Below, piece after piece: positions 33,529 to 34,479 of a stretch of 38,222 nucleotides of DNA. Source of the DNA: a virus (Duplodnaviria; Heunggongvirae; Uroviricota; Caudoviricetes); IMG/VR virus record IMGVR_UViG_2703719347_000001, positions 1 through 38,222 of that record; one strand, 5' to 3'. Position 1 is the stretch's first letter. Each line of letters starts with the position of its first letter. The translations under genes were made by a program, and so were the position numbers. The notes below the pieces were generated by a model that saw only the letters and a list, made by a program, of their open reading frames with translations, had not been told where the DNA came from and made no database searches.

Positions 33529-33625
33529 ACGCCCTCCAAACTAAGTTTTATTAGATGCTAATTACAAATCTATCTTTGGTCAATAAAAACTAAGATTACT
33601 TAGCAATTCAAGAAATGGTGCTCCT
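33529..33625. promoter_or_regulatory. Divergent cro/cI promoter-operator region (oR-like)
   Basis: Two palindromic sites CTAAG-N4-(C/A)TTAG at 33541-33554 and 33590-33603, both preceded by AAACTAAG. Confidence 0.6.
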
Positions 33626-34252
33626 ATGGAAACGGTTGGTCAGCGTATAAAAGCTCTGAGAAGAGTTACCGGAACGTCCCAGAAAGAATTGGGTAAATTT
33701 TGTGGAGTAAGCGACGTTGCTGTGGGGTACTGGGAGAAAGACATCAATACCCCTGGTGGGGAGGCACTTTCGAAATTAGCGAAGTTCTTCAATACGTCAA
33801 TAGATTACATTCTTTATGGTGCTGAGTTTGAAGGCAAACTCGTCACAAACATGCGCAGAGTTCCTGTAATATCGTGGGTTCAGGCTGGGCAGTTTACTGA
33901 GTGCAGGGCAGCAGAAGTGTTTAGTGAAGTGGACAAGTGGGTAGATACATCATTAAAGATTGGTGATAACTCATTTGCATTAGAGGTTAAAGGTGACTCC
34001 ATGACTAACCCTAATGGCCTCCCAACAATACCAGAAGGCGCAACAGTGATTGTAGATCCAGATGCAGAACCTCGTCATGGAAAAATAGTCATCGCTCGAC
34101 TTGATGGAACAAACGAAGCTACAGTAAAAAAATTAGTCATCGATGGCCCTCAAAAGTTTTTAGTGCCATTAAATCCTCGGTATCCCAACATCCCTATCAA
34201 TGGTAATTGCCTTATCATTGGTGTAGTCAAAGGAGTTCAATACGAACTCTAA
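33626..34252 (+). CDS. cI: CI-like repressor (XRE HTH plus S24 LexA-like autopeptidase domain)
   Basis: 208 aa; N-terminal HTH (QKELGKFCGVSDVAVGYWEKDINTP), C-terminal GDSM serine motif and downstream Lys (VKKLVIDG). Confidence 0.85.
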   Translation: METVGQRIKALRRVTGTSQKELGKFCGVSDVAVGYWEKDINTPGGEALSKLAKFFNTSIDYILYGAEFEGKLVTNMRRVPVISWVQAGQFTECRAAEVFSEVDKWVDTSLKIGDNSFALEVKGDSMTNPNGLPTIPEGATVIVDPDAEPRHGKIVIARLDGTNEATVKKLVIDGPQKFLVPLNPRYPNIPINGNCLIIGVVKGVQYEL

Positions 34253-34479
34253 GACCTCTCTTCTCTAACTAAGGCACCGAACTAAGAAAAGTTTGGTGTT
34301 TTCTCTTGCCATAATAACTAAGTTAAGTTAGATTTTATATCAAAGATAACGAACAGGCAGGACGCCCACGAAGTAGCCGCCTGGGGCATATGAAGTCCAG
34401 GATGATTCGTTAGCAACAAAAAAGCGCCCTACAGGACGCTTAGCTCTTTAACAATCTGGATATCCACAACAGTAGCAAT

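What the first reader, a model, noticed from the sequence alone, without database searches (positions are those of the whole stretch)
33529..34335. Repeated AACTAAG motif on both sides of cI: candidate operator half-sites, including sites downstream of cI
The cro-cI intergenic region has two palindromes CTAAG-N4-(C/A)TTAG (33541-33554, 33590-33603). Three further AACTAAG copies occur just downstream of the cI stop (34267-34273, 34280-34286, 34317-34323), the last within CTAAGTTAAGTTAG. This suggests a second operator cluster immediately 3' of cI, which could regulate the convergent rex-position gene or mark an oL-like site.
Basis: seen in the sequence. Interest (0 to 1): 0.4.

Follow-up and report, generated by a model that had tools for sequence, protein, structure and literature searches.

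The report
P22-type operators flanking a prophage repressor gene
The repeated AACTAAG motif marks the binding sites of this E. coli prophage's repressor on both sides of its gene, an ordinary lambda/P22-style switch with an uncharacterised DNA specificity; the site beyond the gene sits on the promoter for the phage's early-left genes.

Summary
All five AACTAAG copies in 38 kb lie in 33539-34322; one coordinate was off by one. The palindrome CTAAG-N4-NTTAG occurs three times against 0.05 expected.

The repressor is 47% identical to P22 C2. The sites have the P22 layout: 18 bp, 7-bp half-sites and an A/T-only 4-bp centre. Position 3 is C, a change reported to abolish P22 repressor binding.

The sites are not equally supported.
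- **33539-56 and 33588-605:** strong sites bracketing a predicted PR promoter, with a weak middle site at 33563-80.
- **34316-33:** a strong site inside a predicted rightward promoter (TTGCCA-17-TAGATT) after the cI terminator, so OL1/PL-like. It is invariant in 41 sequence variants and in lineages 77-80% identical.
- **34280-97:** a plausible weak OL2 in the terminator loop, 36 bp from OL1 (35 bp in P22).
- **34267-73:** polymorphic and probably not a site.

Heteroimmune relatives (SfV, SfII, ST64B) carry their own operator motif in the same slot. The "oL-like" reading is therefore supported. Direct control of the convergent gene is not.

This is a new member of a known kind. Separately, a covarying 62-nt leader RNA starts just after the predicted PL start. 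It matches no Rfam family and is more interesting than the operators.

The parts
33328..33528 (-). cro-like gene (66 aa)
   Evidence: Matches Pfam P22_Cro at E 4e-11. RefSeq names it a Cro/CI family regulator.
33539..33556 (.). OR1-like operator, AACTAAG-TTTT-ATTAGAT; it abuts the PR -10 hexamer and covers the predicted PR start
   Evidence: Both half-sites are invariant in 41 variants and in the LLS, L098 and EC09 lineages; only the centre and the N position vary.
33555..33583 (-). predicted PR promoter, TTGACC-17-TAGCAT, reading into cro
   Evidence: Promoter scan, 9 of 12 matches. It is a consensus match only.
33563..33580 (.). weak OR2-like site (core CAAATCTATCTTTG at 33565-78), overlapping the PR -35
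   Evidence: It lies 24 bp and 25 bp centre-to-centre from the two strong sites; P22 has 23 and 25. mEp460-type relatives have a perfect CTTAG right half here. This is an inference.
33588..33605 (.). OR3-like operator, AACTAAG-ATTA-CTTAGCA (perfect CTAAG/CTTAG palindrome)
   Evidence: It is invariant apart from one central base (L098) among 41 variants; LLS and EC09 keep it unchanged.
33626..34252 (+). cI repressor (208 aa), HTH_3 plus Peptidase_S24
   Evidence: 47% identical to P22 C2, E 2e-65. Pfam domains. PDB matches: lambda CI C-terminal domain at E 8e-28 and P22 C2 N-terminal domain at E 2e-9.
34267..34273 (+). first downstream AACTAAG copy; probably not an operator
   Evidence: Polymorphic at almost every position. 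It reads AACCAAA in mEp460-type relatives, is absent from L098 and is shifted by 1 bp in LLS. The would-be centre is GCAC and there is no right half-site.
34271..34305 (+). cI intrinsic terminator (hairpin plus UUUUCUCUU)
   Evidence: Free energy -15.1 kcal/mol, z -4.3, and 0 of 200 shuffles fold as well. The LLS homologue folds the same way with compensatory changes (CAC/GTG to CAT/ATG). SfV and SfII records annotate a terminator at the same place.
34280..34297 (.). candidate weak OL2-like operator, AACTAAG-AAAA-GTTTGGT, in the loop and 3' arm of the terminator
   Evidence: It is 36 bp centre-to-centre from OL1 with the -35 hexamer between them; P22 OL1-OL2 is 35 bp with the same layout. CTAAG is kept in 5 lineages while the 4 central bases vary: AAAA, TTTA, AATA. 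One natural variant breaks CTAAG (L114). This is an inference.
34306..34334 (+). predicted PL-type promoter, TTGCCA-17-TAGATT (TTGACC in LLS)
   Evidence: Promoter scan and alignments. Heteroimmune relatives have a TTGAC(A/C) promoter at the same distance from the leader element.
34316..34333 (.). OL1-like operator, AACTAAG-TTAA-GTTAGAT, in the spacer and -10 of PL
   Evidence: Bases 34318-34336 are invariant in 41 variants while both flanks are polymorphic. The site is identical in LLS, L098 and EC09, which are 77-80% identical overall.
34349..34410 (+). conserved structured leader RNA starting about 7 nt after the predicted PL start; adjacent to the finding, not part of the operator set
   Evidence: 95 distinct variants. 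Covariation score 0.514 against 0.133 in shuffles (0 of 500 reach it), and 95% of cells are paired. No Rfam match. One copy in the window, 93.8 bits.
34443..34454 (+). boxA-like GCTCTTTAACAA
   Evidence: Read directly. It shares CGCTCTTTAAC with P22's annotated nutL boxA region. It recurs downstream of the leader element in many loci and in the T5-like phage PR1.
   Evidence: Matches phrog_1244 at E 2e-59; no Pfam family above cutoff and no PADLOC match. It always lies opposite to the leader element, in 10 loci. A minus-strand terminator lies at 34441-34422.

Best explanation
The window holds an SfV/CPS-53-type E. coli prophage at thrW, and its immunity region is built like P22 immC.

**Operator.** The repressor (33626-34252) is a P22-C2-type helix-turn-helix protein fused to a LexA/lambda-CI-type self-cleaving domain. 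Its operator is an 18-bp near-palindrome, A-N-C-T-A-A-G / N4 / C-T-T-A-G-N-T, with an A/T-only centre that the protein probably does not contact.

**Right-hand control region.** Between cro and cI there are two strong operators, 33539-56 and 33588-605, and a weak middle one at 33563-80, spaced 24 and 25 bp apart. They overlap a leftward PR-type promoter.

**Left-hand control region.** After the cI stop comes an intrinsic terminator and then a rightward PL-type promoter (34306-34334). Its spacer and -10 hexamer are covered by a third strong operator, 34316-33 (OL1). A weak fourth site, 34280-97, lies 36 bp upstream in the terminator loop and probably acts as OL2.

**Proposed mechanism.** In a lysogen, repressor dimers occupy OR and OL and shut off both early promoters. 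After DNA damage the repressor cleaves itself at its Ala-Gly site. PL then transcribes rightward through a structured leader RNA and a boxA, antisense through the 171-aa gene, and into the yfdP-yfdT, xis and int genes.

**Shown versus inferred.** Shown here: motif statistics, positions, conservation, homology to P22 C2, and the comparative pattern in heteroimmune relatives. Inferred: actual binding, promoter activity, cooperativity and OL-OR looping.
For: - **Statistics.** Three palindromes against 0.05 expected. All five 7-mers fall within 784 bp; 4 of 100 shuffles show any comparable 7-mer cluster.
- **Promoters.** The three promoter-like hits in 33300-35500 (2.8 expected) include exactly the two predicted here: PR on the - strand at 33583..33555 and PL on the + strand at 34306..34334. 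Each overlaps or abuts a palindrome.
- **Conservation.** Bases 34318-34336 and both OR palindromes are free of variation in 41 distinct sequences, apart from central or N positions, while their flanks vary. Lineages 77-80% identical (LLS, L098, EC09) keep every half-site and change only the central bases.
- **Module edge.** LLS homology ends at 34336. Homology to heteroimmune phages begins at 34348.
- **Heteroimmune relatives.** Each carries its own OR-type motif between the cI terminator and the same leader element: SfV with ATGTACC..., SfII and ST64B with TTGC-N7-GCAA. The same TTGAC(A/C) promoter layout recurs in many IMG/VR immunity types. In 13 of 38 types the PL and OR regions share an unusually long exact word.
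- **Protein.** 47% identical to P22 C2, with HTH_3 plus S24 domains and a PDB match to the P22 C2 N-terminal domain.
- **P22 comparison.** P22 has 18-bp operators with contacted positions 2-7 and 12-17 and a non-contacted centre that prefers A/T (PMC4267663). Its OL1, OL2 and OL3 lie between the c2 stop and PL, with OL1-OL2 35 bp apart and the OR sites 23 and 25 bp apart.
- **Operon.** The + strand genes yfdP through int lie downstream.
Against: - No binding or transcription data exist for this phage type, and the promoters are consensus matches only (9 of 12).
- OL has one strong site rather than three.
- The OL2-like site is confounded with the terminator stem, which by itself explains the conserved right half, and one natural variant breaks its CTAAG.
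- In this window PL would have to read about 0.5 kb antisense through a convergent gene and past hairpins before it reaches yfdP.
- The lax palindrome-family test is met by 18% of shuffles.
- PRM could not be located.
Confidence: 0.8

Rival explanations
1. The downstream copies are chance or structural by-products. AACTAAG copies 1 and 2 exist only because they belong to the cI terminator (an A-rich 5' flank, the stem and the loop), and only the cro-cI sites are real operators.
For: Copies 1 and 2 overlap the hairpin at 34271-34302. Copy 1 is polymorphic and is lost in relatives. One variant breaks copy 2. The whole-window count of the 7-mer is not significant.
Against: This does not account for copy 3. 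That copy is a full 14-bp palindrome outside the hairpin, sits in a predicted promoter, and is invariant while its flanks vary. The TAAG in the terminator loop is kept in five lineages although the other four loop bases change.
Confidence: 0.1
2. The downstream sites form an operator cluster that directly controls the convergent 171-aa gene (34480-34995, - strand).
For: The sites are close to the gene's 3' end. A derepressed rightward promoter would produce RNA antisense to the gene (inference).
Against: The gene's start and any promoter of its own lie at or beyond 34995, about 670 bp from the sites, and no CTAAG palindrome occurs there. The gene is absent from SfV, mEp460 and LLS, which keep the promoter-operator slot. 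It has its own minus-strand terminator at 34441-34422.
Confidence: 0.05
3. The promoter at 34306-34334 drives only a short regulatory RNA, namely the conserved leader element ending at the 34422-41 hairpin, rather than the early-left operon.
For: A structured, covarying RNA begins just after the predicted start. A hairpin follows it at 34422-34441.
Against: On the + strand that hairpin is weak (-7.5 kcal/mol) and lacks a U-run. In SfV and mEp460 a + strand gene follows the element within about 15-30 nt; in ZF40 the next + strand gene starts about 135 nt after it. No such hairpin lies between the element and the next gene in SfV. The element lies upstream of early genes even in the T5-like phage PR1.
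Confidence: 0.08

Closest known systems
Phage P22 immC: C2 repressor with the OR1-3/PR/PRM and OL1-3/PL operators
   Same: The repressors are homologous (47% identity over the full length), and Cro belongs to the P22_Cro family. The operators are 18 bp with 7-bp half-sites ending in TAAG and a 4-bp A/T centre. The OR sites are spaced 24 and 25 bp apart against 23 and 25 in P22. cI/c2 is followed directly by OL and PL with no rex genes. OL1 lies in the PL spacer and -10, the -35 hexamer lies between OL1 and OL2, and those two sites are 35-36 bp apart.
   Different: Position 3 of the half-site is C here (AnCTAAG) and T in P22 (AnTTAAG). T3 to C abolishes specific P22 repressor binding (PMC4267663), so this is a separate immunity specificity. 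The recognition helix differs: SDVAVGYWEKD against SNVAISQWERS. A strong cI terminator is interposed and overlaps the OL2 position. No OL3 was found. There is no gene 24 (N) and no boxB hairpin after boxA; a structured leader RNA precedes boxA instead.
Phage lambda OL/OR with CI
   Same: The overall logic is the same: divergent PR and PRM at OR, a second operator set at PL on the far side of cI, and a self-cleaving S24 C-terminal domain homologous to that of lambda CI (E 8e-28). OL-OR looping is plausible over about 0.75 kb.
   Different: Lambda has 17-bp operators of unrelated sequence, rexA and rexB between cI and OL, three strong OL sites, and N/nut antitermination.
SfV, SfII, SfIV and ST64B immunity regions
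   Same: Same phage group and gene order: cro, cI, terminator, promoter, leader element, then early-left genes of the yfdQ/yfdR type (yfdP also in SfV and ST64B).
   Different: The repressors and operator motifs differ, so the phages are heteroimmune. GenBank annotates a 'putative operator region' only between cro and cI of SfV; the OL-side sites are unannotated in every record examined.

Membership tests
Lambdoid OL/PL early-left operator-promoter | Carries the same repressor-binding motif as the cro-cI (OR) region | tested here: met
   CTAAG-N4-NTTAG occurs at 33541-54, 33590-603 and 34318-31 and nowhere else in 38 kb.
Lambdoid OL/PL early-left operator-promoter | The operator overlaps a sigma-70 promoter that points away from cI towards the recombination and integration genes | tested here: met
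   TTGCCA-17-TAGATT on the + strand at 34306-34334 contains the operator. The + strand genes yfdP through xis and int lie downstream. This is a prediction by consensus only.
Lambdoid OL/PL early-left operator-promoter | Lies at the edge of the exchangeable immunity module, and heteroimmune relatives carry their own operator there | tested here: met
   Homology breakpoints fall at 34336 and 34348. SfV, SfII and ST64B carry their own motifs there, and many other types show the same layout.
Lambdoid OL/PL early-left operator-promoter | Multiple adjacent operators bound cooperatively | tested here: inconclusive
   There is one strong site and one weak candidate, which has a degenerate right half-site (GTTTG against NTTAG), lies in the terminator loop and is 36 bp away. 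The third copy is not conserved.
Lambdoid OL/PL early-left operator-promoter | Repressor binds the site and represses transcription | not testable with these tools
   This needs gel-shift or footprinting assays and reporter fusions.
P22 C2-type operator | The repressor's DNA-binding domain is homologous to the P22 C2 N-terminal domain | tested here: met
   47% identity, E 2e-65. PDB entries 2r1j, 3jxb and 1adr match at E about 2e-9.
P22 C2-type operator | 18-bp two-fold symmetric site with contacted positions 2-7 and 12-17 and a 4-bp A/T-preferring non-contacted centre | tested here: met
   Half-sites are spaced by N4. The centres are TTTT, ATTA, TTAA and AAAA. The centre varies between lineages while the half-sites do not. 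The P22 rules come from PMC4267663.
P22 C2-type operator | Half-site sequence A-n-T-T-A-A-G, which defines P22 immunity specificity | tested here: not met
   Position 3 is C in every copy here. T3 to C abolishes specific P22 repressor binding. The site works like a P22 operator but is not of P22 immunity.
HK022 put antiterminator RNA (considered for the leader element at 34349-34410) | Sequence and structure similarity to putL and putR | tested here: not met
   The covariance model R1 finds nothing in the HK022 nun-cI-cro region at E up to 10. The element has a three-helix fold, not two stem-loops.
HK022 put antiterminator RNA (considered for the leader element at 34349-34410) | Lies just downstream of PL, with a second copy in the PR operon, in a phage without N | tested here: inconclusive
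   The position after PL is met. There is only one copy in the window. The related phages SfII, SfV and SfIV are reported to lack N (PMC3851460).
nut site (boxA plus boxB with an N protein) | boxA followed by a boxB hairpin, with an arginine-rich N gene nearby | tested here: inconclusive
   A boxA-like GCTCTTTAACAA is present at 34443-54 (compare P22 nutL). No N-like ORF or convincing boxB was recognised by reading the ORFs; no dedicated search was made.

The most novel reading that the evidence does not exclude
The operator-controlled promoter at 34306-34334 launches a transcript whose first ~70 nt (34349-34410) fold into a covarying three-helix RNA. The reading is that this RNA is a previously undescribed cis-acting leader. 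It might be a processive-antitermination element, alone or together with the downstream boxA, that stands in for N/nut in N-less SfV-, ST64B- and ZF40-type phages. It is also used on early transcripts of a T5-like virulent phage. The 5' ends of the lambda and P22 PL leaders (AUCAGCAGGACGC...) would then be reduced relatives of it.
Probability: 0.25. Interest if true: 0.7.

Novelty: new member of a known kind. Interest (0 to 1): 0.3.

Why it matters
This immunity type is common: 518 of 5,426 complete E. coli genomes carry it, yet its operators are unannotated. Defining them has three uses.
- It gives a testable map of the lysis-lysogeny switch for a widespread thrW prophage.
- It provides a natural C3 specificity variant of the well-studied P22 repressor-operator pair. 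The recognition helix has Asn32 replaced by Asp and Gln37 by Tyr, which is useful for studying how HTH specificity evolves.
- It fixes the start of the early-left transcript, which is what exposed the conserved leader RNA.

As a finding it is expected biology, not a surprise.

Tried and rejected
- **Rfam.** The whole window at gathering thresholds and 34200-34600 at E up to 10 gave nothing relevant.
- **Leader element as HK022 put.** A covariance model found no match in HK022, P22 or LLS, so membership is rejected.
- **Second copy of the leader element in the PR operon.** None was found.
- **The convergent gene as an inverted cassette.** It is flanked by 19-bp inverted repeats, but homologues in 10 loci all share this orientation, so no inversion polymorphism was seen.
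- **The convergent gene as a known defence gene.** No PADLOC hit and no Pfam family above cutoff; only phrog_1244, of unknown function.
- **Genome-contig scan with the 15-mer GCCCACGAAGTAGCC.** It returned mostly chance hits in GC-rich genomes. Only E. coli, Leclercia and Kosakonia were confirmed by the model. The pattern was too short and the scan was largely wasted.
- **Literature searches.** Searches for the element's sequence, for put-like RNAs and for SfV operators found no description.
- **Single-sequence folding of the leader.** It was not significant (z -0.3 to -1.2); only the comparative analysis showed the structure.
- **PRM.** It could not be located convincingly.
- **Exact-word test of PL against OR.** It is crude and misses known positives such as SfV, so 13 of 38 is a lower bound.
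Full report
**Context.** The window matches E. coli chromosomes at 100% identity. It is a prophage of the SfV/CPS-53 type next to tRNA-Thr (thrW) and proA. Around the finding the genes are:
- a cII-like gene, ymfL (Phage_CP76), on the - strand;
- cro (33328-33528, -, Pfam P22_Cro);
- cI (33626-34252, +, HTH_3 plus Peptidase_S24);
- a convergent 171-aa gene (34480-34995, -);
- the + strand early-left genes yfdP, yfdQ, yfdR, yfdT, xis and int.

About one complete E. coli genome in ten carries this immunity region, 518 of 5,426. It also occurs in phages vB_EcoM-689R6, Kati and mEp460, and at about 77% DNA identity in phage LLS.

**The observation.** AACTAAG occurs five times in the window, all on the + strand, between 33539 and 34322. 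The last copy is at 34316-22, one base from the stated position. The count alone is unremarkable (2.4 expected), but the clustering is not: 4 of 100 shuffles contain any 7-mer with at least 5 copies in 800 bp.

The 14-bp palindrome CTAAG-N4-NTTAG occurs at 33541-54, 33590-603 and 34318-31 and nowhere else. That is against 0.05 expected, and no shuffle of 100 reaches it. CTAAG is depleted in the window overall, 15 copies against 41 expected, so the refutation condition "not above background for AT-rich sequence" is not met.

**What the motif is.** The repressor is 47% identical over its full length to P22 C2 (E 2e-65). Its N-terminal domain matches the solved P22 C2 DNA-binding domain, and its C-terminal domain matches the lambda CI self-cleavage domain. 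By eye the alignments keep the Ala-Gly cleavage site (VQAGQF), the catalytic Ser (GDSM) and the Lys (VKK).

P22 repressor binds six 18-bp two-fold symmetric sites. [quoted passage not shown] Read as 18-mers, the sites here are:

| Site | Coordinates | Sequence |
|---|---|---|
| OR1-like | 33539-56 | AACTAAG-TTTT-ATTAGAT |
| OR3-like | 33588-605 | AACTAAG-ATTA-CTTAGCA |
| OL1-like | 34316-33 | AACTAAG-TTAA-GTTAGAT |

The P22 half-sites in the P22 record are ATTTAAG, AATTAAG and similar. The motif here is therefore the P22 half-site with C in place of T at position 3. The same paper reports that T3 to C reduces P22 repressor binding to non-specific levels. That fits a homologous repressor with a different immunity specificity; the recognition helix reads SDVAVGYWEKD here against SNVAISQWERS in P22. 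Population variation also shows that position 2 of the 7-mer is free, being A or G at 33540 and 34317. The real half-site is therefore A-N-CTAAG.

**The cro-cI region.** The promoter scan finds TTGACC-17-TAGCAT on the - strand at 33583..33555.
- The 33539-56 site abuts its -10 hexamer and covers the expected start.
- The 33588-605 site lies just upstream of its -35 hexamer.
- Between them, 24 and 25 bp centre-to-centre, is a degenerate site with core CAAATCTATCTTTG at 33565-78, overlapping the -35. In mEp460-type relatives its right half is a perfect CTTAG.

P22 OR1, OR2 and OR3 are spaced 23 and 25 bp apart. I could not place PRM with any confidence.

**The region 3' of cI.** The three downstream copies are not equivalent.

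1. **Copy 3 is a full palindrome in a promoter.** It lies in the spacer and -10 of the only + strand promoter-like hit in 33300-35500, TTGCCA-17-TAGATT at 34306-34334. LLS has TTGACC there.
   - Among 41 distinct sequences of this immunity type, 34318-34336 shows no variation, while 34309-34317 and 34337-34346 are polymorphic.
   - LLS, L098 and EC09, which are 77-80% identical overall, keep it exactly.
2. **Copy 2 (34280-86) sits in the cI terminator.** Its first bases lie in the stem and the rest in the loop of a strong hairpin followed by UUUUCUCUU.
   - The hairpin spans 34271-34302, with free energy -15.1 kcal/mol and z -4.3. LLS shows compensatory stem changes.
   - As an 18-mer (AACTAAG-AAAA-GTTTGGT) it has a degenerate right half-site.
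   - CTAAG is kept in five lineages while the next four bases change (AAAA, TTTA, AATA), which is the pattern expected of an operator.
   - It lies 36 bp from copy 3 with the -35 hexamer between them. P22 OL1 and OL2 are arranged the same way, 35 bp apart.
   - One natural variant breaks it. I rate it a plausible weak OL2, at about 0.45.
3. **Copy 1 (34267-73) is probably not a site.** It is polymorphic at nearly every position, is absent from mEp460-type and L098 sequences, is shifted in LLS, and would have a G/C-rich centre. I rate it at about 0.1.

**Comparative evidence that this is PL/OL.**
- LLS homology stops at 34336, and homology to many heteroimmune phages starts at 34348. The palindrome therefore sits at the edge of the exchangeable immunity module.
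- SfV, SfII and ST64B have the same order of parts: cI, a terminator, a promoter and the same conserved downstream element. In each, the promoter region repeats that phage's own cro-cI motif.
  - SfV has ATGTACCCATGAGATACAT after TTGACA, against ATGTACCTCCGATATACAT at its OR.
  - SfII and ST64B have TTGCATATATCGCAA-type sites at both places.
- Across IMG/VR contigs that hold the downstream element, dozens of different immunity types show a TTGAC(A/C) promoter at the same distance from it, including a lambda-like one.
- In 13 of 38 types the PL region and the region upstream of cI share an exact word longer than in 95% of control windows. About 2 of 38 would be expected by chance, and the test is crude.
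- In SfV and mEp460 a + strand gene follows the element within about 15-30 nt. The transcript therefore heads into early-left genes.

**The convergent gene.** It belongs to phrog_1244, of unknown function, with no PADLOC hit. It has a minus-strand terminator at 34441-34422, lies in this orientation in all 10 loci that have it, and is absent from relatives that keep the promoter-operator slot. Its start is about 670 bp from the operators, and no palindrome lies near it. Direct control by these sites is therefore not supported; antisense interference from a derepressed PL is possible.

**Mechanism and confidence.** Repressor dimers at OR and OL shut off PR and PL. RecA-stimulated self-cleavage releases both promoters. 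Looping between OL and OR over about 0.75 kb is plausible by analogy with lambda. I give 0.8 that 34316-33 and the two OR palindromes are repressor operators and that 34306-34334 is the early-left promoter. Binding and promoter activity are inferred, not shown.

**Noticed alongside: a conserved leader RNA.** A 62-nt element at 34349-34410 begins about 7 nt after the predicted PL start.
- It matches no Rfam family.
- Ninety-five distinct variants support an outer helix (34349-53 with 34406-10) and a 3' hairpin (34380-84 with 34397-401). Both show abundant compensatory changes: 95% of cells are paired against 75% in shuffles, and the covariation score is 0.514 against 0.133, reached by 0 of 500 shuffles; slid controls reach at most 0.115.
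- The core GGCAGGACGCCCACGAAGUAGCC and the loop GGCRUAYGAA are nearly invariant, although the sampling pattern fixed 19 nt of the core.
- It is single-copy in the window, and nothing like it is found in HK022, P22 or LLS.
- It is present after cI in ZF40 and Aeromonas phage pAEv1818, upstream of early genes in PHB10, and downstream of a strong promoter in the terminal repeat of the T5-like Providencia phage PR1. In PR1 a boxA (CGCTCTTTAAAAA) follows directly.
- In the window a boxA-like GCTCTTTAACAA lies at 34443-54.
- SfII, SfV and SfIV are reported to lack N (PMC3851460).
- The first bases of the P22 PL transcript, and of lambda's from memory, resemble the element's 5' core (CAGCAGGACGC).

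A cis-acting role in early transcription, such as antitermination or stabilisation, is a reasonable hypothesis but is untested.

**Verdict.** The three-site cluster and the control of the convergent gene are not. This is an uncharacterised member of the P22-type repressor-operator family arranged in the standard lambdoid way.

Noticed in passing
window 34349-34410 (+); also L002 2502-2563, L210 1996-2064, L211 2000-2070, L212 1991-2060, L213 1991-2059: A conserved, covarying three-helix RNA lies at the 5' end of the predicted early-left transcript. It matches no Rfam family and is unannotated in every phage record examined. It occurs behind many heteroimmune PL-type promoters in Enterobacterales phages, in an Aeromonas phage and in a T5-like Providencia phage. 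It is not detectably related to HK022 put. It contains two conserved GGA motifs (CAGGACG and GGAUGA).
   Followed up: partly
window 34443-34454 (+), preceded by the hairpin at 34422-34441: A boxA-like GCTCTTTAACAA lies about 100 nt into the predicted PL transcript. The same hairpin-plus-boxA module precedes + strand genes in many related contigs, and a boxA directly follows the leader element in phage PR1. No N-like gene or boxB was recognised.
   Followed up: partly
window 34453-34471 and 35014-35032: 19-bp inverted repeats, 95% complementary (AATCTGGATATCCACAACA), flank the convergent 171-aa gene of the phrog_1244 family. The gene lies opposite to PL in all 10 loci that have it, including a 58%-identical homologue.
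   Followed up: partly
window 31544-32513, inside the replication gene 31453-32394 (-): Clustered short repeats: TCTGACG and CTGACGG five times each, and near-palindromes at 32042, 32057 and 32072 with 15-bp spacing. They lie inside the O-like replication initiator gene and look like origin iterons.
   Followed up: no
window 1676-2410 and 10220-11270: Two further regions hold several 7-mers repeated at least 5 times within 800 bp (for example CTGCCGC, TCGCTGC and CGGCACT in the first, CTCCAGC in the second). I did not check whether they lie within genes or what they are.
   Followed up: no
window 35140-35451 (+): RefSeq marks a frameshifted hypothetical gene between the convergent gene and yfdP. 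It would be the first + strand coding sequence of the early-left operon in this prophage and appears to be decayed.
   Followed up: no
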